Below, one piece after another: positions 6,344-51,699 of a stretch of DNA of 64,000 nt. The translations under genes and the position numbers were made by a program. The notes under the pieces are model-generated. The model was not told the DNA's origin, did not search any database, and saw only the letters and a program-made list of their open reading frames with translations. The number at the start of each line of letters is the position of its first letter. Position 1 is the stretch's first letter. The DNA is from Escherichia coli. Its GTDB lineage: Bacteria; Pseudomonadota; Gammaproteobacteria; Enterobacterales; Enterobacteriaceae. The stretch lies in NCBI RefSeq assembly GCF_016026235.1, contig NZ_CP065613.1; one strand, 5' to 3'.

Positions 6344-6384
6344 AAAACGCCCGTTGGTTGTATTCGACAACCGATGCCTGATGC

Positions 6385-6470
6385 GCCGCTGACGCGACTT
6401 ATCAGGCCTACGGGTGTACTGAACTGTAGGTCGGATAAGACGCATGGCGTCGCATCCGACAACAATCCCG
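6385..6470. repeat. BIME made of two inverted REP elements in the prpB-prpC spacer
   Basis: gcctgatgcg...cttatcaggcctac and gtaggtcggataag...gcatccgac palindromic units. Confidence 0.7.
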
Positions 6471-9196: not shown

Positions 9197-11044
9197 ATGT
9201 CTTTTAGCGAATTTTATCAGCGTTCGATTAACGAACCGGAGCAGTTCTGGGCCGAGCAGGCCCGGCGTATTGACTGGCAGACGCCCTTTACGCAAACGCT
9301 CGACCACAGCAATCCGCCGTTTGCCCGTTGGTTTTGTGAAGGCCGAACCAATTTGTGCCACAACGCTATCGACCGCTGGCTGGAGAAACAGCCAGAGGCA
9401 CTGGCATTGATTGCCGTCTCTTCGGAAACAGAAGAAGAGCGCACCTTTACCTTTCGCCAGCTGCATGACGAAGTGAACGCGGTGGCCTCAATGTTGCGCT
9501 CACTGGGCGTGCAGCGCGGCGATCGGGTGCTGGTGTATATGCCGATGATTGCCGAAGTGCATATTACTCTGCTGGCCTGCGCGCGCATTGGTGCTATTCA
9601 TTCGGTGGTATTTGGTGGTTTTGCCTCGCACAGCGTGGCGGCGCGAATTGATGACGCTAAACCGGTGCTGATTGTCTCGGCTGATGCCGGAGCGCGCGGT
9701 GGCAAAATCATTCCCTATAAAAAATTGCTCGACGATGCGATAAGTCAGGCGCAGCACCAGCCACGCCATGTTTTGCTGGTGGATCGCGGGTTGGCGAAAA
9801 TGGCGCGCGTCAGCGGGCGGGATGTCGATTTCGCGTCGTTGCGCCATCAACACATCGGCGCGCGGGTACCGGTGGCGTGGCTGGAATCCAACGAAACCTC
9901 CTGCATTCTCTACACTTCCGGCACGACCGGCAAACCTAAAGGCGTGCAGCGTGACGTCGGCGGATATGCGGTGGCGCTGGCGACCTCGATGGACACCATT
10001 TTTGGCGGCAAAGCGGGCAGCGTGTTCTTTTGCGCATCGGATATCGGCTGGGTGGTGGGGCATTCGTATATCGTTTACGCGCCGCTGCTGGCGGGGATGG
10101 CGACTATCGTTTACGAAGGATTGCCGACCTGGCCGGACTGCGGCGTGTGGTGGAAAATCGTCGAGAAATATCAGGTTAGCCGGATGTTCTCAGCGCCGAC
10201 CGCCATTCGCGTGCTGAAAAAATTCCCTACCGCTGAAATTCGCAAACACGATCTCTCGTCGCTGGAAGTGCTCTATCTGGCTGGAGAACCGCTGGACGAG
10301 CCGACCGCCAGTTGGGTGAGCAATACGCTGGATGTGCCGGTCATCGACAACTACTGGCAGACCGAATCCGGCTGGCCGATTATGGCGATTGCTCGCGGTC
10401 TGGACGACAGGCCGACGCGTCTGGGAAGCCCCGGCGTGCCGATGTATGGCTATAACGTGCAGTTGCTTAATGAAGTCACCGGCGAACCGTGTGGCGTCAA
10501 CGAGAAAGGGATGCTGGTGGTGGAAGGGCCGCTGCCGCCGGGGTGTATTCAGACCATCTGGGGCGACGACGACCGCTTTGTGAAGACTTACTGGTCGCTG
10601 TTTTCCCGCCCGGTGTACGCCACCTTTGACTGGGGCATCCGTGACGCTGACGGTTATCACTTTATTCTCGGGCGCACTGACGATGTAATTAACGTTGCCG
10701 GGCATCGGCTGGGCACGCGCGAGATTGAAGAGAGTATCTCCAGTCATCCGGGCGTTGCCGAAGTGGCGGTGGCGTTTGTCATTCCGAAAGAGAGCGACAG
10801 TCTGGAAGATCGTGATGTGGCGCATTCGCAAGAGAAGGCGATTATGGCGCTGGTGGACAGCCAGATTGGCAACTTTGGCCGCCCGGCGCACGTCTGGTTT
10901 GTCTCGCAATTGCCAAAAACGCGATCCGGAAAAATGCTGCGGCGCACGATCCAGGCGATTTGCGAAGGACGCGATCCTGGGGATCTGACGACCATTGATG
11001 ATCCTGCGTCGTTGGATCAGATCCGCCAGGCGATGGAAGAGTAA
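9197..11044 (+). CDS. prpE: Propionyl-CoA synthetase (ANL-family acyl-CoA synthetase), 615 aa; appears to carry an in-frame internal deletion near the C-terminal domain
   Basis: AMP-binding motif YTSGTTGKPKG and C-terminal PKTRSGK; the protein reads ...HPGVAEVAVAFVIPKE..., lacking the expected VVGxxDxxKGQ segment. Confidence 0.9.
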   Translation: MSFSEFYQRSINEPEQFWAEQARRIDWQTPFTQTLDHSNPPFARWFCEGRTNLCHNAIDRWLEKQPEALALIAVSSETEEERTFTFRQLHDEVNAVASMLRSLGVQRGDRVLVYMPMIAEVHITLLACARIGAIHSVVFGGFASHSVAARIDDAKPVLIVSADAGARGGKIIPYKKLLDDAISQAQHQPRHVLLVDRGLAKMARVSGRDVDFASLRHQHIGARVPVAWLESNETSCILYTSGTTGKPKGVQRDVGGYAVALATSMDTIFGGKAGSVFFCASDIGWVVGHSYIVYAPLLAGMATIVYEGLPTWPDCGVWWKIVEKYQVSRMFSAPTAIRVLKKFPTAEIRKHDLSSLEVLYLAGEPLDEPTASWVSNTLDVPVIDNYWQTESGWPIMAIARGLDDRPTRLGSPGVPMYGYNVQLLNEVTGEPCGVNEKGMLVVEGPLPPGCIQTIWGDDDRFVKTYWSLFSRPVYATFDWGIRDADGYHFILGRTDDVINVAGHRLGTREIEESISSHPGVAEVAVAFVIPKESDSLEDRDVAHSQEKAIMALVDSQIGNFGRPAHVWFVSQLPKTRSGKMLRRTIQAICEGRDPGDLTTIDDPASLDQIRQAMEE

Positions 11045-11045
11045 G

Positions 11046-11693
11046 GTATTGTCGGATGCGTCGCGTGGCGCATCCGACACCATGCGCCGATGCCTGATGC
11101 GACGCAGACGCGTCTTATCATGCCTACAGGCCTGAACCGTAGGTCGGATAAGGCGCTCGCGTCGCATCCGACACCCCGCGCCGATGCCTGATGCGACGCT
11201 GGCGCGTCTTATCATGCCTACAGGTCTGAACCGTAGGTCGGATAAGGCGCTCGCGCCGCATCCGACACCGTGCGCCGATGCCTGATGCGACGCAGACGCG
11301 TCTTATCATGCCTACAGGTCTGAACCGTAGGTCGGATAAGGCGCTCGCGCCGCATCCGACACCATGCGCCGATGCCTGATGCGACGCAGGCGCGTCTTAT
11401 CATGCCTACAGGCCTGAACCGTAGGTCGGATAAGGCGCTCGCGCCGCATCCGACACCGTGTGCCGATGCCTGATGCGACGCTGATGCGTCTTATCATGCC
11501 TACAGGCCTGAACCGTAGGTCGGATAAGGCGCTCGCGCCGCATTCGACACCATGCGCCGATGCCTGATGCGACGCAGGCGCGTCTTATCATGCCTACAGG
11601 CCTGAACCGTAGGTCGGATAAGGCGCTCGCGCCGCATCCGACACCGTGCGCAGTTGCCTGATGCGACGCTTACCGCGTCTTATCATGCCTGCC
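11046..11693. repeat. Tandem BIME/REP array, about 7 copies of a 94-bp unit
   Basis: Unit cgcatccgacacc...gtaggtcggataaggcgctcgcg recurs at 11069, 11163 and then every 94 bp; this produces four spurious 61-aa ORFs. Confidence 0.85.
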
Positions 11694-11844
11694 CACTGTT
11701 TTTACACCGATAATTTTTCCCCCACCTTTTTGCACTCATTCATATAAAAAATATATTTCCCCACGAAAACGATTGCTTTTTATCTTCAGATGAATAGAAT
11801 GCGGCGGATTTTTTGGGTTTCAAACAGCAAAAAGGGGGAATTTC

Positions 11845-13104
11845 GTGTCGCAAGATAACAACTTTAGCCAGGGGCCAGTCCCGCAGTCGGCGCGGAAAGG
11901 GGTATTGGCATTGACGTTCGTCATGCTGGGATTAACCTTCTTTTCCGCCAGTATGTGGACCGGCGGCACTCTCGGAACCGGTCTTAGCTATCATGATTTC
12001 TTCCTCGCAGTTCTCATCGGTAATCTTCTCCTCGGTATTTACACTTCATTTCTCGGTTACATTGGCGCAAAAACCGGCCTGACCACTCATCTTCTTGCTC
12101 GCTTCTCGTTTGGTGTTAAAGGCTCATGGCTGCCTTCACTGCTACTGGGCGGAACTCAGGTTGGCTGGTTTGGCGTCGGTGTGGCGATGTTTGCCATTCC
12201 GGTGGGTAAGGCAACCGGGCTGGATATTAATTTGCTGATTGCCGTTTCCGGTTTACTGATGACCGTCACCGTCTTTTTTGGCATTTCGGCGCTGACGGTT
12301 CTTTCGGTGATTGCGGTTCCGGCTATCGCCTGCCTGGGCGGTTATTCCGTGTGGCTGGCTGTTAACGGCATGGGCGGCCTGGACGCATTAAAAGCGGTCG
12401 TTCCCGCACAACCGTTAGATTTCAATGTCGCGCTGGCGCTGGTTGTGGGGTCATTTATCAGTGCGGGTACGCTCACCGCTGACTTTGTCCGGTTTGGTCG
12501 CAATGCCAAACTGGCGGTGCTGGTGGCGATGGTGGCCTTTTTCCTCGGCAACTCGTTGATGTTTATTTTCGGTGCAGCGGGCGCTGCGGCACTGGGCATG
12601 GCGGATATCTCTGATGTGATGATTGCTCAGGGCCTGCTGCTGCCTGCGATTGTGGTGCTGGGGCTGAATATCTGGACCACCAACGATAACGCACTCTATG
12701 CGTCGGGTTTAGGTTTCGCCAACATTACCGGTATGTCGAGCAAAACCCTTTCGGTGATTAACGGTATTATCGGTACGGTCTGCGCATTATGGCTGTATAA
12801 CAATTTTGTCGGCTGGTTGACCTTCCTTTCGGCAGCTATTCCTCCGGTAGGTGGCGTGATCATTGCCGACTATCTGATGAACCGTCGCCGCTATGAGCAC
12901 TTTGCGACCACGCGTATGATGAGTGTCAATTGGGTGGCGATTCTGGCGGTCGCGCTGGGGATTGCCGCAGGCCACTGGTTACCGGGAATTGTTCCGGTCA
13001 ACGCGGTATTAGGTGGCGCGCTGAGCTATCTGATCCTTAACCCGATTTTGAATCGTAAAACGACAGCAGCAATGACGCATGTGGAGGTTAACAGTGTCGA
13101 ATAA
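11845..13104 (+). CDS. codB: Cytosine permease (NCS1 family), 419 aa, GTG start
   Basis: 12-TM transporter, 419 aa, immediately upstream of and overlapping codA. Confidence 0.9.
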
Positions 13105-16711: not shown

Positions 16712-17866
16712 ATGCTGCTGGTTCTGGTGCTGATTGGTCTTAATATGCGACCACTGCTCACCTCCGTCGGGCCACTGCTACCGCAATTGCGCCAGGCGAG
16801 CGGAATGAGCTTTAGCGTGGCTGCCCTGTTGACCGCTCTTCCGGTGGTCACCATGGGCGGGCTGGCGCTGGCCGGAAGCTGGCTTCATCAGCATGTCAGC
16901 GAACGTCGCAGTGTCGCCATCAGTCTGTTGCTGATTGCCGTCGGTGCATTGATGCGTGAGCTTTACCCCCAAAGTGCGCTGCTGCTTAGCAGCGCACTGC
17001 TTGGTGGGGTGGGGATCGGCATCATTCAGGCGGTGATGCCTTCGGTGATTAAACGGCGGTTTCAGCAGCGCACGCCACTGGTGATGGGGCTGTGGTCCGC
17101 GGCTCTGATGGGCGGCGGTGGACTTGGTGCCGCCATAACGCCCTGGTTAGTTCAACATAGCGAAACCTGGTATCAAACACTCGCCTGGTGGGCGCTGCCT
17201 GCCGTTGTTGCGCTCTTTGCCTGGTGGTGGCAAAGCACCCGCGAGGTCGCCTCTTCCCACAAGACAACAACCACTCCGGTTCGCGTGGTTTTCACTCCTC
17301 GCGCGTGGACGCTGGGTGTTTACTTTGGTCTGATTAACGGTGGTTACGCCAGCCTGATTGCCTGGTTACCCGCCTTCTATATTGAGATTGGTGCCAGCGC
17401 GCAGTACAGCGGTTCCTTGCTGGCATTGATGACGCTTGGGCAAGCCGCAGGAGCTTTGCTGATGCCTGCTATGGCTCGCCATCAGGATCGGCGCAAACTG
17501 TTAATGCTGGCGCTGGTGTTACAACTGGTGGGGTTCTGCGGCTTTATCTGGCTGCCGATGCAATTGCCGGTATTGTGGGCGATGGTGTGTGGATTAGGTC
17601 TGGGCGGCGCGTTTCCGCTCTGTTTGCTGCTGGCGCTCGATCACTCTGCGCAACCGGCTATTGCTGGCAAGCTGGTGGCGTTTATGCAGGGGATCGGTTT
17701 TATCATCGCCGGGCTTGCCCCGTGGTTTTCTGGCGTGCTGCGTAGTATCAGCGGCAATTACCTGATGGACTGGGCGTTTCATGCGCTGTGCGTCGTTGGG
17801 CTGATGATCATAACCCTGCGTTTTGCACCAGCACGTTTTCCGCAGCTGTGGGTCAAAGAGGCATGA
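16712..17866 (+). CDS. cynX: MFS cyanate transporter (384 aa)
   Basis: 12-TM MFS protein; start taken at MLLVLVLIG, 9 codons inside the ORF-track start. Confidence 0.85.
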   Translation: MLLVLVLIGLNMRPLLTSVGPLLPQLRQASGMSFSVAALLTALPVVTMGGLALAGSWLHQHVSERRSVAISLLLIAVGALMRELYPQSALLLSSALLGGVGIGIIQAVMPSVIKRRFQQRTPLVMGLWSAALMGGGGLGAAITPWLVQHSETWYQTLAWWALPAVVALFAWWWQSTREVASSHKTTTTPVRVVFTPRAWTLGVYFGLINGGYASLIAWLPAFYIEIGASAQYSGSLLALMTLGQAAGALLMPAMARHQDRRKLLMLALVLQLVGFCGFIWLPMQLPVLWAMVCGLGLGGAFPLCLLLALDHSAQPAIAGKLVAFMQGIGFIIAGLAPWFSGVLRSISGNYLMDWAFHALCVVGLMIITLRFAPARFPQLWVKEA

Positions 17867-17897
17867 TGCGACGCTTGTTCCTGCGCTTTGTTCATGC

Positions 17898-17962
17898 CGG
17901 ATGCGGCTAATGTAGATCGCTGAACTTGTAGGCCTGATAAGCGCAGCGTATCAGGCAATTTT
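17898..17962. repeat. REP element between cynX and lacA
   Basis: gccggatgcggc...gtaggcctgataagcgcagcgtatcaggc. Confidence 0.65.
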
Positions 17963-32411: not shown

Positions 32412-32415
<4 letters not shown>

Positions 32416-33425
32416 ACGGTAAAAAACTTTATATCTCGGACGTCACATTGCGTGACGGTATGCACGCCATTCGTCATCAGTATTCGCTGGAAAACGTTCG
32501 CCAGATTGCCAAAGCACTGGACGATGCCCGCGTGGATTCGATTGAAGTGGCCCACGGCGACGGTTTGCAAGGTTCCAGCTTTAACTATGGTTTCGGCGCA
32601 CATAGCGACCTTGAATGGATTGAAGCGGCGGCGGATGTGGTGAAGCACGCCAAAATCGCGACGTTGTTGCTGCCAGGAATCGGCACTATTCACGATCTGA
32701 AAAATGCCTGGCAGGCTGGCGCGCGGGTGGTTCGTGTGGTAACGCACTGTACCGAAGCTGATGTTTCCGCCCAGCATATTCAGTATGCCCGCGAGCTCGG
32801 AATGGACACCGTTGGTTTTCTGATGATGAGCCATATGACCACGCCGGAGAATCTCGCCAAGCAGGCAAAGCTGATGGAAGGCTACGGTGCGACCTGTATT
32901 TATGTGGTGGATTCTGGCGGTGCGATGAACATGAGCGATATCCGTGACCGTTTCCGCGCCCTGAAAGCAGTGTTGAAACCAGAAACGCAAACCGGCATGC
33001 ACGCTCACCATAACCTGAGTCTTGGCGTGGCGAACTCTATCGCGGCGGTGGAAGAGGGCTGCGACCGAATCGACGCCAGCCTCGCGGGAATGGGCGCGGG
33101 CGCAGGTAACGCACCGCTGGAAGTGTTTATTGCCGCCGCGGATAAACTGGGCTGGCAGCATGGGACCGATCTCTATGCGTTAATGGATGCCGCCGACGAC
33201 CTGGTGCGTCCGTTGCAGGATCGTCCGGTACGAGTCGATCGCGAAACGCTGGCGCTGGGATACGCTGGTGTTTACTCGAGCTTCCTGCGTCACTGTGAAA
33301 CGGCGGCGGCGCATTATGGCTTAAGTGCGGTGGATATTCTCGTTGAGCTGGGCAAACGCCGGATGGTTGGCGGCCAGGAGGATATGATCGTCGACGTGGC
33401 GCTGGATCTGCGCAACAACAAATAA
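32412..33425 (+). CDS. mhpE: 4-hydroxy-2-oxovalerate aldolase, 337 aa
   Basis: HMGL-like TIM-barrel aldolase; 4-nt overlap with mhpF. Confidence 0.95.
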
Positions 33426-33470
33426 TGATGACTGCCGATAACGTGCATTTTGTATGCCCATCCCAGCACG

Positions 33471-33920
<450 letters not shown>

Positions 33921-34004
33921 GTAGGCAGTCATTAAATGGTTCTGATTACGCGGCTGGCAATGTATCAGTCGCGATTCACCTGCACTCGCAACGAGGTTCA
34001 TCTT

Positions 34005-35216
34005 ATGTCGACTCGTACCCCTTCATCATCTTCATCCCGCCTGATGCTGACCATCGGGCTTTGTTTTTTGGTCGCTCTGATGGAAGGGCTGGATCTTCAG
34101 GCGGCTGGCATTGCGGCGGGTGGCATCGCCCAGGCTTTCGCACTCGATAAAATGCAAATGGGCTGGATATTCAGCGCCGGAATACTCGGTTTGCTACCCG
34201 GCGCGTTGGTTGGCGGAATGCTGGCGGACCGTTATGGTCGCAAGCGCATTTTGATTGGCTCAGTTGCGCTGTTTGGTTTGTTCTCGCTGGCAACGGCGAT
34301 TGCCTGGGATTTCCCCTCACTGGTCTTTGCGCGGCTGATGACCGGTGTCGGGCTGGGGGCGGCGTTGCTGAATCTTATCGCCCTGACGTCTGAAGCCGCG
34401 GGTCCACGTTTTCGTGGGACGGCAGTGAGCCTGATGTATTGCGGTGTTCCCATTGGCGCGGCGCTGGCGGCGACACTGGGTTTCGCGGGGGCAAACTTAG
34501 CATGGCAAACGGTGTTTTGGGTAGGTGGTGTGGTGCCGTTGATTCTGGTGCCGCTATTAATGCGCTGGCTGCCGGAGTCGGCGGTTTTCGCTGGCGAAAA
34601 ACAGGCTGCGCCACCACTGCGTGCGTTATTTGCGCCAGAAACGGCAACCGCGACGCTGCTGCTGTGGTTGTGTTATTTCTTCACTCTGCTGGTGGTCTAC
34701 ATGTTGATCAACTGGCTACCGCTGCTTTTGGTGGAGCAAGGATTCCAGCCATCGCAGGCGGCAGGGGTGATGTTTGCACTGCAAATGGGTGCGGCGAGCG
34801 GGACGTTAATGTTGGGCGCATTGATGGATAAGCTGCGTCCAGTAACCATGTCGCTACTGATTTATAGCGGCATGTTAGCTTCGCTGCTGGCGCTGGGAAC
34901 GGTGTCGTCATTTAACGGTATGTTGCTGGCGGGATTTGTCGCGGGGTTGTTTGCGACAGGTGGGCAAAGCGTTTTGTATGCCCTGGCACCGTTGTTTTAC
35001 AGTTCGCAGATCCGCGCAACAGGTGTGGGAACAGCCGTGGCGGTAGGGCGTCTGGGGGCTATGAGCGGTCCGTTACTGGCCGGGAAAATGCTGGCATTAG
35101 GCACTGGCACGGTCGGCGTAATGGCCGCTTCTGCACCGGGTATTCTTGTTGCTGGGTTGGCGGTGTTTATTTTGATGAGTCGGAGATCAAGAATGCAGCC
35201 GTGTGCCGATGCCTGA
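34005..35216 (+). CDS. mhpT: MFS transporter for 3-hydroxyphenylpropionate, 403 aa
   Basis: 12-TM MFS; start at MSTRTPSSSSSRLML (the ORF-track start at 33936 lies inside the REP array). Confidence 0.85.
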   Translation: MSTRTPSSSSSRLMLTIGLCFLVALMEGLDLQAAGIAAGGIAQAFALDKMQMGWIFSAGILGLLPGALVGGMLADRYGRKRILIGSVALFGLFSLATAIAWDFPSLVFARLMTGVGLGAALLNLIALTSEAAGPRFRGTAVSLMYCGVPIGAALAATLGFAGANLAWQTVFWVGGVVPLILVPLLMRWLPESAVFAGEKQAAPPLRALFAPETATATLLLWLCYFFTLLVVYMLINWLPLLLVEQGFQPSQAAGVMFALQMGAASGTLMLGALMDKLRPVTMSLLIYSGMLASLLALGTVSSFNGMLLAGFVAGLFATGGQSVLYALAPLFYSSQIRATGVGTAVAVGRLGAMSGPLLAGKMLALGTGTVGVMAASAPGILVAGLAVFILMSRRSRMQPCADA

Positions 35217-35877: not shown

Positions 35878-35970
35878 GATGCCTGATGCGACGCTTACGC
35901 GTCTTATCATGCCTACGGCTCATGGGCGAAATGTAGGCCGGATAAGGCGTTCACGCCGCATCCGGCAGTT
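35878..35970. repeat. REP pair (BIME) between yaiL and frmB
   Basis: gcctgatgcgacgc...cttatcatgcctac and gtaggccggataaggcg...gcatccggc. Confidence 0.7.
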
Positions 35971-48324: not shown

Positions 48325-49148
48325 GTGTGCTCATTAATGAAAAACTGCATTCGCGGCGGCTGAAATGGCGCTGGCCGCTCTCGCGTCAGGTGACCTTAAG
48401 CATTGGCACGTTAGCGGTTTTACTCACTGTATGGTGGACGGTGGCGGCGCCGCAACTGATTAGCCCGCTGTTTTTGCCGCCGCCGCAACAAGTACTGGCA
48501 AAACTGCTCACCATTGCCGGACCGCAGGGATTTATGGACGCCACGCTGTGGCAGCATCTGGCAGCCAGCCTGACGCGCATTGTGCTGGCGCTACTCGCGG
48601 CGGTGTTGATCGGCATTCCGGTCGGGATCGCCATGGGGCTAAGCCCGACGGTGCGCGGCATTCTGGATCCGGTAATCGAACTTTATCGTCCGGTGCCGCC
48701 GCTGGCTTATTTACCACTGATGGTGATCTGGTTTGGTATTGGCGAAACCTCGAAGATCTTACTGATCTATTTAGCGATTTTTGCGCCGGTGGCGATGTCG
48801 GCGCTGGCAGGGGTGAAAAGCGCGCAGCAGGTTCGCATTCGTGCCGCCCAGTCGCTGGGTGCCAGCCGTGCGCAGGTGCTGTGGTTTGTCATTTTGCCCG
48901 GCGCGCTGCCGGAAATCCTCACCGGATTACGCATTGGTCTGGGGGTGGGCTGGTCTACCCTGGTAGCGGCGGAGCTGATTGCCGCGACGCGCGGTTTAGG
49001 ATTTATGGTTCAGTCAGCGGGTGAATTTCTCGCGACTGACGTGGTGCTGGCGGGGATCGCGGTGATTGCGATTATCGCCTTTCTTTTAGAACTGGGTTTG
49101 CGCGCGTTACAGCGCCGACTGACGCCCTGGCATGGAGAAGTACAATGA
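48321..49148 (+). CDS. tauC: Taurine ABC transporter permease, 275 aa
   Basis: 6-TM BPD permease; 4-nt overlap with tauB. Confidence 0.95.
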
Positions 49149-49996
49149 GTGAACGTCTGAGCATTACCCCGCTGGGGCCGTATATTGGCGCACAAATTTC
49201 GGGTGCCGACCTGACGCGCCCGTTAAGCGATAATCAGTTTGAACAGCTTTACCATGCGGTGCTGCGCCATCAGGTGGTGTTTCTGCGCGATCAAGCTATT
49301 ACACCGCTGCAGCAACGCGCGCTGGCCCAGCGTTTTGGCGAACTGCATATTCACCCTGTTTACCCTCATGCCGAAGGGGTTGACGAGATCATCGTGCTGG
49401 ATACCCATAACGATAATCCGCCAGATAACGACAACTGGCATACCGATGTGACATTTATTGAAACGCCACCCGCAGGGGCGATTCTGGCAGCGAAAGAGTT
49501 ACCTTCGACCGGCGGCGATACGCTCTGGACCAGCGGTATTGCGGCCTATGAGGCGCTCTCTGTTCCCTTCCGCCAACTGCTGAGCGGGCTGCGTGCGGAG
49601 CATGATTTTCGTAAATCGTTCCCGGAATACAAATACCGCAAAACAGAGGAGGAACATCAACCCTGGCGCGAGGCGGTCGCGAAAAACCCGCCGTTGCTAC
49701 ATCCGGTGGTGCGAACGCATCCGGTGAGCGGTAAACAGGCGCTGTTTGTGAATGAAGGCTTTACTACGCGAATTGTTGATGTGAGCGAGAAAGAGAGCGA
49801 AGCCTTGTTAAGTTTTTTGTTTGCCCATATCACCAAACCGGAGTTTCAGGTGCGCTGGCGCTGGCAACCAAATGATATTGCGATTTGGGATAACCGCGTG
49901 ACCCAGCACTATGCCAATGCCGATTACCTGCCACAGCGACGGATTATGCATCGGGCGACGATTCTTGGGGATAAACCGTTTTATCGGGCGGGGTAA
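49145..49996 (+). CDS. tauD: Taurine dioxygenase (Fe/2-oxoglutarate dependent), 283 aa
   Basis: TauD/TfdA family HxD...H triad (WHTDVTF). Confidence 0.95.
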
Positions 49997-50001
49997 TACG
50001 A

Positions 50002-50126
50002 GAGTGGACGGTCCCCTTGAGCGGCGAAAGAACGTTGATATAGATGAAGCGAGTGCGGACGGTCCACTCAAGCGGCGAAAGAACGGTGATATAGATGAAA
50101 CGAGTGCGGACGGTCCCCTCGCCCCC
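50002..50126. repeat. Tandem direct repeat, about 2.5 copies of a 49-51 bp unit, in the tauD-hemB convergent spacer
   Basis: gagtg(c)ggacggtcc..tcaagcggcgaaagaacg.tgatatagatgaa.c at 50002, 50051 and 50102. Confidence 0.8.
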
Positions 50127-50199: not shown

Positions 50200-51174
50200 T
50201 TAACGCAGAATCTTCTTCTCAGCCAGATCCAGCGCAAAGTAGCTGAAAATCAGATCCGCACCTGCACGCTTAATCGAACCTAAGCTTTCGAGCACCACTT
50301 TCTCTTCATCTATAGCACCCGCCAGCGCGGCGAACTTAATCATCGCGTACTCACCGCTCACCTGATACGCGCCAATCGGCAATTCAGTACGTTCACGCAG
50401 CTCACGCACGATGTCGAGGTACGCTCCAGCAGGTTTAACCATCAGGCAGTCTGCGCCCTGGGCTTCATCCAGCAGTGACTCACGAATCGCCTCACGACGG
50501 TTCATTGGGTTCATCTGATAGCTTTTGCGGTCGCCTTTTAATGCGCTTCCGGCAGCTTCACGGAACGGGCCATAAAAGGAGGAGGCGAACTTGGTCGAAT
50601 ACGACATAATCGCCGTATCTTTAAAGCCCGCAGCGTCCAGCGCCTGGCGAATTGCCTGTACCTGGCCGTCCATCGCGGCGGAAGGGGCGATGAAGTCTGC
50701 GCCTGCAGCAGCTGCAACCACGGCTTGCTTGCCTAAATTTTCCAGAGTCGCGTCGTTGTCGACGCCATGCTCGCACAGCACACCGCAGTGACCGTGAGAA
50801 GTGTATTCACAGAAACAAGTGTCTGACATGACGATCATTTCTGGCACAGTCTGCTTGCAGATGCGCGACATACGCGCCACCAGTCCATCTTCCCGCCAGG
50901 CGTCGCTGCCGGTTTCATCGGTATGGTGAGAGATGCCGAAAGTCATCACGGAACGAATACCGGCGTTGGCGATGCGTTCAATTTCGCGTGCCAGATGTTT
51001 CTCTGGAATGCGCATCACGCCTGGCATGGCTTCAACGGCTTTGTAGTCGTCAATTTCTTCTTCAACAAAGATCGGCAACACCAGGTCGTTAAGGCTAAGT
51101 GTTGTCTCTTCAAACATAGCGCGCAGCGCAGGAGATTTGCGCAGGCGACGAGGGCGTTGGATTAAGTCTGTCAT
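50200..51174 (-). CDS. hemB: Porphobilinogen synthase (delta-aminolevulinate dehydratase), 324 aa
   Basis: Start at [13 protein letters not shown]; ALAD family. Confidence 0.95.
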
Positions 51175-51699
51175 GGTCTGCCTGATGTTTGTGGAATTAA
51201 GGTGCACAGTATACCTGAAGCGGGGCAGGAGTGTTTTACGAAAGTTGTCGTGATGTTGACAAGAAGAGAATGAAAGAGAGACCAGGACATCTTTGTAATA
51301 GAAATAGCAATAATTTCATATTCACTGAAAATATTTTTAATTTTTATTTATAGCCATAGATTATTGTTTTTGGGGATTTGGTGACGTTTTCAAAAAGTGA
51401 ATAACTTAAAGTTCATTGCTTATTGATACATTATTTGTCTGTTTTAGTTGTTTTATATTTTCATGGTCTATGTTTTAAAATTAACGCTTTCATTAACGTA
51501 TTGAAATATTGTGTTTTTGTTATTTATTTCTGTGTGTGTGTTCACGTGCTTTATATATGTCCGCAATCGGACTTAGGGGAAAGAATAATTGAACCATTCC
51601 TCTATAACGCCGCATAATCGTCAACGCGAAACATAATATGTTTTCTATGCATTGATAATTGATGGATCAACTTATTACGTCCCTGAGGAGGGATGACAA

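What the first reader, a model, noticed from the sequence alone, without database searches (positions are those of the whole stretch)
11046..11693. Seven-copy tandem array of a 94-bp REP/BIME unit between prpE and codB
About 650 bp of near-identical 94-bp units, each made of two inverted REP palindromes. The array is long enough to create four phased spurious 61-aa ORFs. Arrays of this kind vary in copy number between strains and can act as transcript stabilisers or terminators between convergent and tandem operons. It could be mistaken for a CRISPR array, but the unit and spacer repeat together.
Basis: seen in the sequence. Interest (0 to 1): 0.3.

Follow-up and report, generated by a model that had tools for sequence, protein, structure and literature searches.

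The report
Ordinary REP/BIME-2 repeat array after prpE
The 650-bp stretch between the E. coli genes prpE and codB really is seven near-identical copies of a pair of small palindromes, but it belongs to a long-known class of bacterial repeat (BIME-2) whose copy number is known to differ between strains, so the finding is correct and ordinary.

Summary
Tandem Repeats Finder gives 11069-11690, period 94, 6.6 copies and no indels. The full units are 93.6-98.9% identical to each other. The flanking genes are prpE and codB.

Each unit is a Y-type REP with a GTAG foot, a 12-nt linker, an inverted Z2-type REP with a CTAC foot, and a 17-nt spacer. That is the published definition of a BIME-2 array. Six Y-Z2 pairs pass the Rfam gathering score for RF02564 (naRNA4, the unit of REP325).

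The array begins with an atypical perfect hairpin 5 nt after the prpE stop codon. This hairpin is conserved, including in an Escherichia species that has no array.

In 114 sampled complete E. coli genomes the locus holds 0 to 8 internal units, always in whole 94-bp steps. K-12 has 1 and this window has 6. Three O157:H7 states were seen: 2, 4 and 7 units.

By analogy with REP325, which has been studied experimentally, the array most likely protects the prpBCDE transcript's 3' end and attenuates read-through towards codBA. This function is inferred, not shown. A neutral expansion is a serious rival.

It is not a CRISPR array, and the 61-aa ORFs are artefacts. Novelty: already known.

The parts
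11050..11693 (+). Whole BIME-2 array: an anchor hairpin and a Z2 REP, followed by six canonical Y-Z2 pairs, giving 14 palindromic units with a 94-bp period
   Evidence: TRF 11069-11690, period 94, 6.6 copies; unit dissection; RNA fold z-score -9.3
11050..11079 (+). Anchor hairpin: perfect palindrome TGTCGGATGCG-N8-CGCATCCGACA starting 5 nt after the prpE TAA. Its 3' arm is identical to the 3' half of the Y REPs. It has GTAT instead of GTAG and no stem mismatch.
   Evidence: Sequence; fold -25.1 kcal/mol, z -4.6; the 24-nt left segment is present, with 0-4 substitutions, in all 12 non-B2 E. coli genomes inspected; present without any array in Escherichia sp. MOD1-EC7003
11092..11127 (+). First Z2-type REP (CTAC-foot orientation). 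Paired with the anchor hairpin it forms an atypical first unit.
   Evidence: 33/37 identical to the published Z2 sequence; Rfam naRNA4 44.7 bits for 11050-11124, below the gathering score of 59.5
11142..11218 (+). Canonical Y-linker-Z2 pair 1 (naRNA4-like unit)
   Evidence: Rfam RF02564 66.5 bits, gathering score 59.5
11236..11312 (+). Canonical Y-linker-Z2 pair 2
   Evidence: Rfam RF02564 68.3 bits
11330..11406 (+). Canonical Y-linker-Z2 pair 3
   Evidence: Rfam RF02564 68.9 bits
11424..11500 (+). Canonical Y-linker-Z2 pair 4
   Evidence: Rfam RF02564 70.4 bits; the alignment shows two hairpins
11518..11594 (+). Canonical Y-linker-Z2 pair 5
   Evidence: Rfam RF02564 65.2 bits
11612..11689 (+). 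Canonical Y-linker-Z2 pair 6. Its Z2 is the terminal Z2 kept in all strains; here the loop is TTACC and the foot is CTGC.
   Evidence: Rfam RF02564 66.8 bits; cross-strain comparison
11124..11591 (-). Four phased 61-aa ORFs (11124-11309, 11218-11403, 11312-11497, 11406-11591). These are repeat artefacts, not genes.
   Evidence: ORF list; starts 94 nt apart, so successive ORFs read the same DNA in different frames; no Pfam match; no CDS annotated there in any RefSeq genome inspected
9197..11044 (+). Context: prpE, last gene of prpBCDE, upstream of the array. This copy carries a 39-bp in-frame deletion.
11729..11757 (+). Context: promoter-like site (TTTGCA-17-TATATT) in the 151-bp AT-rich segment between the array and codB. 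codB (11845-13104) therefore has its own upstream region beyond the array.
   Evidence: a consensus match only; this segment is recognisably conserved in all strains compared, whatever the array length

Best explanation
The feature is a BIME-2 array, a tandem amplification of an E. coli Y-type REP and an inverted Z2-type REP. It sits in the 3' untranslated region of prpE, upstream of the codBA promoter region.

Shown here: the architecture; membership of the REP/BIME-2 sequence family and of Rfam RF02564; predicted hairpin-forming capacity (thermodynamic folds, not experiment); and whole-unit copy-number change between strains.

Inferred from the experimentally studied sister array REP325 and the older REP literature: when prpBCDE is transcribed, the run of 14 stable RNA hairpins (a) blocks 3'-to-5' exonucleases and so protects the upstream prp message, and (b) attenuates read-through, partly through Rho, so that propionate-induced transcription does not run into codBA. 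The first hairpin starts 5 nt after the prpE stop codon. That is within the 15-nt distance at which REPs stall terminating ribosomes, so it may also lower PrpE output. At the DNA level the Y REPs are likely gyrase sites.

The array grows and shrinks by in-register unequal recombination or slippage between 94-bp units, possibly helped by the REP-associated transposase TnpAREP.

My confidence is about 0.97 in the identity and about 0.5 that the local terminator/stabiliser role operates at this locus.
For: Architecture: each unit reads GTAG-Y REP (30/35 identical to the published Y), a 12-nt linker, a Z2 REP (33-35/37 identical to the published Z2) ending in CTAC, and a 17-nt spacer. This matches the BIME-2 definition in PMC3333891.

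Six pairs score 65-70 bits against Rfam naRNA4, above the gathering score of 59.5, with the two-hairpin consensus structure.

Hairpins: the Y REP folds at -16.1, the Z2 at -14.8 and the anchor at -25.1 kcal/mol. The whole array folds at -349 kcal/mol with z = -9.3. Across 28 distinct units, 95% of stem cells pair.

Variation is concentrated in loops and the linker (15 of 23 columns variable) rather than in stems (9 of 48); Fisher p = 3e-4. The locus Y differs from the canonical Y by a paired C-G to T-A change.

The motif is dispersed: 31 matches in the window against 0.63 expected, and there is a second array at 33466-33911.

Copy number in 114 sampled genomes is 0 to 8 internal units, and every length falls within 0.09 of a whole unit. 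Unit-allele strings show in-register losses and gains: O157 RSTFSUV versus WSTV versus RX, and MINF_7C YZaabcad versus HSP60 YZabcae.

Mechanism by analogy: deleting REP325 (12 Y/Z2 units between the tandem genes yjdM and yjdN) raised the downstream gene about 8-10-fold and lowered the upstream mRNA. Attenuation was partly Rho-dependent, and transcripts formed a hairpin ladder. [quoted passage not shown] REPs within 15 nt of a stop codon stall ribosomes (Liang 2015, cited through). Gyrase cleaves BIME-2, mainly at Y REPs.

No intrinsic terminator was found on the + strand between prpE and codB, so the array is the only structured 3' element.
Against: No expression, RNA 3'-end or gyrase data for this locus were available; a literature search for prpE, codB and intergenic found nothing relevant.

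78% of sampled genomes have only 0 or 1 internal unit, and clonal O157:H7 strains differ (2, 4 and 7 units). The extra copies are therefore clearly dispensable.

No compensatory base changes occur within the locus, so covariation neither supports nor contradicts the structure.

The 2026 preprint itself stresses that REP effects depend on context and that REPs do not lengthen mRNA half-lives globally.

The thermodynamic optimum of one unit is a long Y-to-Z2 duplex (-37.1 kcal/mol) and not two separate hairpins.
Confidence: 0.6

Rival explanations
1. Neutral or selfish expansion. The locus needs at most the anchor hairpin and one Z2 REP. The six extra 94-bp units would then be a by-product of slippage, unequal recombination or TnpAREP activity, with no selected effect on prp or cod expression.
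For: Of 114 sampled genomes, 34 have no internal unit and 55 have one. Only 12 have five or more. O157:H7 strains with identical PrpE and CodB proteins carry 2, 4 or 7 units. Flanks 99.6-99.9% identical to the window carry 0, 1, 2 or 6 units. Amplification of BIME-2 by TnpAREP strand transfer has been proposed from in vitro work.
Against: REP325 of similar size has measurable effects on both neighbouring genes. Stems are much less variable than loops and linkers, although concerted evolution within arrays could produce the same pattern. Long arrays in different lineages share unit variants, E with ET350 and F with O157, so long arrays persist.
Confidence: 0.3
2. DNA-level role. The array would be mainly a cluster of strong gyrase sites, a topological insulator that absorbs transcription-induced supercoiling between prpBCDE and codBA, independent of its RNA.
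For: Gyrase cleavage sites are over-represented in BIME-2, mainly at Y REPs, and persist when transcription is blocked. BIME-2 sites lie mostly at borders between supercoiling regions. The array carries six canonical Y REPs.
Against: Only a subset of BIME-2 loci houses gyrase cleavage sites, and this locus is not named there. This role is compatible with the RNA-level role and does not replace it.
Confidence: 0.3
3. Source of nucleoid-associated RNAs. The six naRNA4-like units would be processed into about 77-nt RNAs that, together with HU, bridge REP cruciforms and condense the chromosome.
For: Six units pass the Rfam naRNA4 gathering score on the prpE sense strand.
Against: The 2026 follow-up, co-authored by the senior author of the 2015 study, found no effect on nucleoid volume from REP325 deletion or overexpression, no stable HU-cruciform-RNA complex, and no REP-REP Hi-C contacts. 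The Rfam match reflects shared REP sequence, not function. prpBCDE is transcribed only when induced (established knowledge).
Confidence: 0.04
4. CRISPR array or protein-coding genes. The palindromic repeats would be CRISPR repeats, or the phased 61-aa ORFs would be real small genes.
For: There are regularly spaced palindromes, and four ORFs of identical length.
Against: The 'spacers' are as repeated as the 'repeats': the whole 94-bp unit is 94-99% identical. The palindromes match REP consensus sequences. The ORFs start 94 nt apart, so they read the same DNA in shifted frames. They have no Pfam match and are never annotated by PGAP.
Confidence: 0.01

Closest known systems
REP325 of E. coli K-12 (the yjdM-yjdN BIME-2 array; source of naRNA4, Rfam RF02564)
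   Same: Both are alternating Y and Z2 palindromes in tandem units, lying between two same-strand genes. Six units here pass the family's covariance model on the sense strand of the upstream gene. The size is similar: 12 palindromic units in REP325 against 14 here.
   Different: The locus is different, the period is 94 bp, and the Y (GTCGGAT...ATCCGAC) and Z2 (ATCATGCC) carry locus-specific variants, so scores are lower (65-70 bits, against 85-89 bits for the mhp array in the same window). The array starts with an atypical perfect hairpin abutting the stop codon. Downstream lies a separately promoted operon rather than a gene of the same operon. No experiments exist for this locus.
BIME-2 family (Gilson, Bachellier and Hofnung classification, as summarised by Ton-Hoang et al. 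2012, PMC3333891)
   Same: Y and Z2 REPs in inverse orientation, GTAG/CTAC feet, a stem mismatch, short variable linkers, multiple tandem copies well conserved within a locus, and a copy number that varies between strains.
   Different: Nothing essential differs. In this strain the array has 14 palindromic units, and up to 18 in MINF_7C, slightly above the 1-12 units quoted for K-12 REP annotations.
Second BIME-2 array in the same window (33466-33911)
   Same: Same Y/Z2 family, tandem, and passing the naRNA4 gathering score.
   Different: Period 101 bp, 4.4 copies, canonical Y (GCCGGATGCGGCG), and the opposite orientation relative to its flanking + strand ORFs.
Intrinsic (Rho-independent) terminators
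   Same: GC-rich hairpins directly after the last gene of an operon.
   Different: In E. coli no hairpin of the array is followed by a U-tract, and the scan found none on the + strand. Only in Escherichia sp. MOD1-EC7003 is the anchor hairpin followed by TTTATGT.

Membership tests
E. coli REP (Y and Z2 types) | 30-40-nt imperfect palindrome matching the Y or Z2 consensus | tested here: met
   Z2 copies are 33-35/37 identical to GCCTGATGCGACGCTGGCGCGTCTTATCAGGCCTACG. Y copies are 29-30/35 identical to TGCCGGATGCGGCGTAAACGCCTTATCCGGCCTAC, with two of the five differences forming a compensatory C-G to T-A pair. Each folds as a hairpin.
E. coli REP (Y and Z2 types) | Conserved GTAG tetranucleotide at the foot (CTAC on the inverted copy) and a mismatch in the stem | tested here: met
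   All six Y copies have GTAG immediately before GTCGGAT. Six of seven Z2 copies end in CTAC; the last ends in CTGC. The AA/GC internal mismatch is present in Y. The anchor hairpin 11050-11079 fails both tests (GTAT, perfect stem).
E. coli REP (Y and Z2 types) | Extragenic and dispersed in many copies | tested here: met
   The array lies between the prpE stop and the codB start. There are 31 motif matches at 10 or more sites in the 64-kb window against 0.63 expected. The array sequence matches a median of 16 places per E. coli genome.
BIME-2 | Y and Z2 REPs alternating in inverse orientation with short linkers | tested here: met
   The unit is Y (GTAG orientation), 12 nt, Z2 (CTAC orientation), 17 nt. 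Definition.
BIME-2 | Multiple tandem copies, well conserved within a locus | tested here: met
   6.6 copies with 93.6-98.9% pairwise identity.
BIME-2 | [quoted passage not shown] | tested here: met
   Internal units 0:34, 1:55, 2:11, 3:1, 4:1, 5:2, 6:1, 7:7, 8:2 in 114 sampled genomes.
BIME-2 | Bound and cleaved by DNA gyrase | not testable with these tools
   Known for a subset of BIME-2 loci. No data for this locus or strain.
Rfam RF02564 naRNA4 | Covariance-model score at or above the gathering threshold (59.5 bits) | tested here: met
   Six + strand hits of 65.2-70.4 bits. The first, atypical unit scores 44.7 bits and fails.
Rfam RF02564 naRNA4 | Expressed as a discrete HU-binding RNA | not testable with these tools
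   No expression data are available. The functional claim is itself disputed.
CRISPR array | Identical repeats separated by unique spacers, usually with a leader and cas genes | tested here: not met
   The inter-palindrome segments repeat along with the palindromes, and the whole 94-bp unit is conserved.
Intrinsic terminator | GC-rich hairpin followed at once by a U-tract | tested here: not met
   No + strand terminator-like site in 10900-11900. The T-run at 11698-11702 lies about 10 nt beyond the last stem.

The most novel reading that the evidence does not exclude
The prpE-codB array may be a fast-mutating length 'rheostat'. Its copy number ranges from 0 to 8 units and changes even within O157:H7. 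Under this reading, copy number heritably sets how much PrpE is made and how well propionate-induced transcription is insulated from the cytosine-salvage operon, giving E. coli lineages a contingency-like switch built from REPs.
Probability: 0.08. Interest if true: 0.5.

Novelty: already known. Interest (0 to 1): 0.13.

Why it matters
The practical value lies mainly in annotation. Arrays like this produce phased false ORFs and a 341-aa antisense ORF, and they can be mistaken for CRISPR. They are also places where short-read assemblies may collapse.

The locus is a clean natural series for testing the recent proposal that REP arrays are tunable 3'-UTR terminator/stabilisers. It offers 0 to 8 identical-register units with the same flanks. 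It is also a recurrent landing site for IS621, the bridge-RNA recombinase. None of this changes what is known about BIME-2 elements.

Tried and rejected
- **Covariation:** I tested for covariation within the locus using 28 distinct units from 14 arrays. There are no compensatory pairs because the stems hardly vary, so the test neither supports nor contradicts the structure.
- **Pfam:** a scan of the 61-aa ORFs found nothing. An earlier attempt to translate the whole array failed on stop codons.
- **Literature on this locus:** a search for prpE, codB and intergenic found nothing relevant. Liang et al. 2015 is not held, so I cite it through PMC12306157. One review that was searched did not contain the passage. 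The Ton-Hoang supplements are not held.
- **Outgroups:** a genome-contig scan with the anchor-hairpin pattern returned a single outgroup locus. This is too few to date the array. The exact pattern probably missed divergent species and the B2-type E. coli representative, which has an ordinary Y REP at that position.
- **Terminator scan:** it found no intrinsic terminator on the + strand.
- **CRISPR and coding readings:** both rejected from the sequence.
- **naRNA4/HU chromosome-condensation role:** considered and set aside after reading the 2026 preprint.

Full report
**1. The observation**

Tandem Repeats Finder reports one array at 11069-11690 with period 94, 6.6 copies, 93% matches, no indels and score 1095. 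An independent repeat search finds the same 94-bp register. The six full units are 93.6-98.9% identical pairwise, mean 95.7%.

The flanking ORFs are prpE (9197-11044, +) and codB (11845-13104, +). RefSeq genomes matching the region carry exactly those annotations. The four phased 61-aa ORFs are present on the minus strand, together with a truncated fifth ORF and a 341-aa ORF that starts in the array and runs antisense through prpE. The closest complete genome, E. coli FDAARGOS_943, is 99.9% identical in the flanks and has the same array with a single base difference. The array is therefore unlikely to be an assembly artefact of the window.

**2. Anatomy**

On the + strand each 94-bp unit reads as follows:
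- GTAG followed by a Y-type palindrome, GTCGGAT-AA-GGCG-loop-CGCC-GC-ATCCGAC;
- a 12-nt linker;
- a Z2-type palindrome, GCCTGATG-C-GACGC-loop-GCGTC-T-TATCATGC, ending in CTAC;
- a 17-nt spacer.

The Z2 copies are 33-35/37 identical to the published Z2 sequence. The Y copies are 29-30/35 identical to the published Y sequence. Two of the five Y differences are the two sides of one base pair (C-G to T-A), so the hairpin is preserved.

Single palindromes fold as hairpins at -16.1 kcal/mol (Y) and -14.8 kcal/mol (Z2). The whole array folds far better than shuffled controls, at -349 kcal/mol with z = -9.3. The thermodynamic optimum of one unit is a long Y-to-Z2 duplex at -37.1 kcal/mol. Two local hairpins and one long hairpin are thus competing states; co-transcriptional folding would favour the local ones, which is my inference.

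The array does not begin with an ordinary REP. Five nucleotides after the prpE TAA lies a perfect palindrome, TGTCGGATGCG-N8-CGCATCCGACA (11050-11079; -25.1 kcal/mol, z = -4.6). Its 3' arm is identical to the 3' half of the Y REPs, and the usual linker and Z2 follow it. It has GTAT instead of GTAG and no stem mismatch. Both features are required for binding by the REP-associated transposase in vitro.

In total there are 7 Z2 REPs, 6 Y REPs and this anchor hairpin, which makes 14 palindromic units.

**3. Family membership**

Ton-Hoang et al. define BIME-2 by four features: Y and Z2 REPs in inverse orientation with short linkers; occurrence as multiple tandem copies; good conservation within a locus; and variable number between strains. 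All four were tested here and met.

Rfam gives an independent check. The six canonical pairs score 65.2-70.4 bits against RF02564 (naRNA4), whose gathering score is 59.5 bits, with the two-hairpin consensus structure. The atypical first pair scores 44.7 bits.

The REP motif occurs 31 times in the window against 0.63 expected. A second BIME-2 array lies at 33466-33911, with period 101 and 4.4 copies. The array sequence matches a median of 16 places per E. coli genome.

It is not a CRISPR array, because the inter-palindrome segments repeat with the unit. It is not coding either. Because 94 = 3x31+1, successive ORFs read the same DNA in shifted frames. They have no Pfam match, and PGAP annotates no CDS there in any of the 13 RefSeq E. 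coli genomes inspected at this locus.

**4. Copy number across strains**

I searched all complete E. coli RefSeq genomes with queries made only of the two flanks. The array length was read from the distance between the matches. Rows were sampled evenly down the ranking in two searches.

5,230 of 5,426 genomes have the locus. Among 114 sampled genomes the number of internal 94-bp units is:

| Internal units | Genomes | Note |
|---|---|---|
| 0 | 34 | |
| 1 | 55 | K-12 |
| 2 | 11 | |
| 3 | 1 | |
| 4 | 1 | |
| 5 | 2 | |
| 6 | 1 | the window's state |
| 7 | 7 | |
| 8 | 2 | |

Every length falls within 0.09 of a whole unit. The minimal state is the anchor hairpin plus one Z2 (strain A12). The window is therefore in the upper tail: 10.5% of sampled genomes have five or more units.

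Writing each distinct unit as a letter shows in-register gains and losses:
- O157:H7 BB24-1 is RSTFSUV, SS17 is WSTV and 6535NalR is RX. All three encode the same PrpE and CodB protein accessions.
- MINF_7C is YZaabcad and HSP60 is YZabcae.
- The window (ABCDEF) shares unit E with ET350 and unit F with O157.

Two caveats apply. The sample is systematic, not phylogenetically independent. Some older assemblies could have collapsed repeats.

**5. Pattern of variation**

Among 28 distinct units from 14 arrays, 15 of 23 loop and linker columns vary, against 9 of 48 stem columns (Fisher p = 3e-4). 95% of stem cells form standard pairs, but there is no compensatory change within the locus. Covariation therefore neither supports nor contradicts the structure. 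The concentration of variation in linkers agrees with the literature.

**6. How it most likely works**

None of what follows was measured at this locus.

The closest studied element is REP325, an array of 12 Y/Z2 units between the tandem genes yjdM and yjdN. A 2026 preprint co-authored by the senior author of the 2015 nucleoid-condensation study reports the following:
- REP325 does not compact the nucleoid.
- Deleting it raises the downstream gene about 8-10-fold and lowers the upstream mRNA.
- Attenuation is partly Rho-dependent.
- The array is expressed as a ladder of hairpin-terminated species.

The present array has the same composition. It has the same orientation relative to the upstream gene, since the Rfam hits are on the prpE sense strand. 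It has a similar size and a tandem gene context. It is also the only structured element between prpE and the codB upstream region, because no intrinsic terminator was found.

I therefore infer that it protects the 3' end of the prpBCDE transcript and limits read-through towards codBA. codBA keeps its own promoter-like region, 11694-11844, in all strains whatever the array length.

The first hairpin starts 5 nt after the stop codon. In B2 strains a Y REP starts at the stop itself, and the TAG is part of its GTAG foot. REPs within 15 nt of a stop codon are reported to stall terminating ribosomes and lower translation (Liang 2015), so PrpE output may be affected.

At the DNA level, gyrase cleaves BIME-2 preferentially at Y REPs, and BIME-2 sites lie at supercoiling borders. 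This role is compatible with the RNA-level role and was not tested.

The main rival is that the extra units are neutral products of slippage or TnpAREP-type amplification. Most strains manage with 0 or 1 unit, and clonal strains differ.

**7. Outgroup**

An exact-pattern scan of one genome per species found the anchor hairpin in Escherichia sp. MOD1-EC7003. There prpE's stop is followed by the same perfect hairpin, then by TTTATGT and the convergent lacA. There are no Y/Z2 units and no codBA-cyn genes.

This suggests that the hairpin is the older, locus-specific 3' element and that the Y/Z2 units were added beside it in E. coli. A deletion in that lineage is equally possible, and a single outgroup cannot decide between them.

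**8. Verdict**

The element is a textbook BIME-2 array, and its copy-number variability is a known family property. It is an already known kind of feature. Its modest value is as a natural 0-to-8-unit series for testing the terminator/stabiliser model, and as a caution for annotation.

Noticed in passing
window 10762/10763 (within prpE, 9197-11044): prpE carries a 39-bp in-frame deletion lying exactly between two GTGGCGGTGG direct repeats. It removes 13 residues (VAVVGVKDALKGQ), giving an ORF of 615 aa rather than 628 aa. The nearest genome (FDAARGOS_943, 99.9% identical) and all 114 sampled genomes have the 39 bp, and so do the eight best matches to the junction. It looks like a slippage deletion private to this strain and may impair propionyl-CoA synthetase.
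   Followed up: partly
window 33466-33911: A second BIME-2 array with period 101 and 4.4 copies at 97% identity, using canonical Y and Z2 REPs. It lies between + strand ORFs 32412-33425 and 33936-35216. Its four units score 85-89 bits against Rfam naRNA4 on the minus strand.
   Followed up: partly
L010 (E. coli C21) and L016 (E. coli TK3046); equivalent to window ~11680-11693: IS621, the bridge-RNA recombinase element, is inserted in the last Z2 REP of this array at ATCAGGC|CT|AC, its published natural target. It occurs in 2 of 59 sampled genomes, and the difference between the two searches in how many records had both flanks joined suggests roughly 5% overall. In TK3046 the gene order is lacA-IS621-codB, so the codBA-cyn segment appears inverted next to an IS621 copy. 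All seven Z2 copies in the window read ATCATGCCTAC or ATCATGCCTGC, one or two mismatches from that target.
   Followed up: partly
L013 5876-5906 (Escherichia sp. MOD1-EC7003): In this non-coli Escherichia the prpE stop codon is followed by the same perfect hairpin, then TTTATGT and the convergent lacA. The Y/Z2 units and the whole codBA-cynRTSX block are absent.
   Followed up: partly
L014 (E. coli UM146, phylogroup B2), first 20 nt after prpE: B2 strains lack the perfect anchor hairpin. An ordinary Y REP begins directly at the prpE stop codon, and the TAG stop forms part of the REP's conserved GTAG foot.
   Followed up: no
window 49998-50120: A 51-bp tandem repeat (2.4 copies, 87% matches) lies in the gap between convergent ORFs 49145-49996 (+) and 50200-51207 (-). 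It is not a REP and was not identified.
   Followed up: no
window 6376-6460, 14417, 17861-17950, 18624, 20384, 21176, 35881-35966: Further single or paired REPs are scattered through the window. One pair lies in the gap between the second and third ORFs of the prp operon, and a Z1-like REP lies just before the end of lacA.
   Followed up: no
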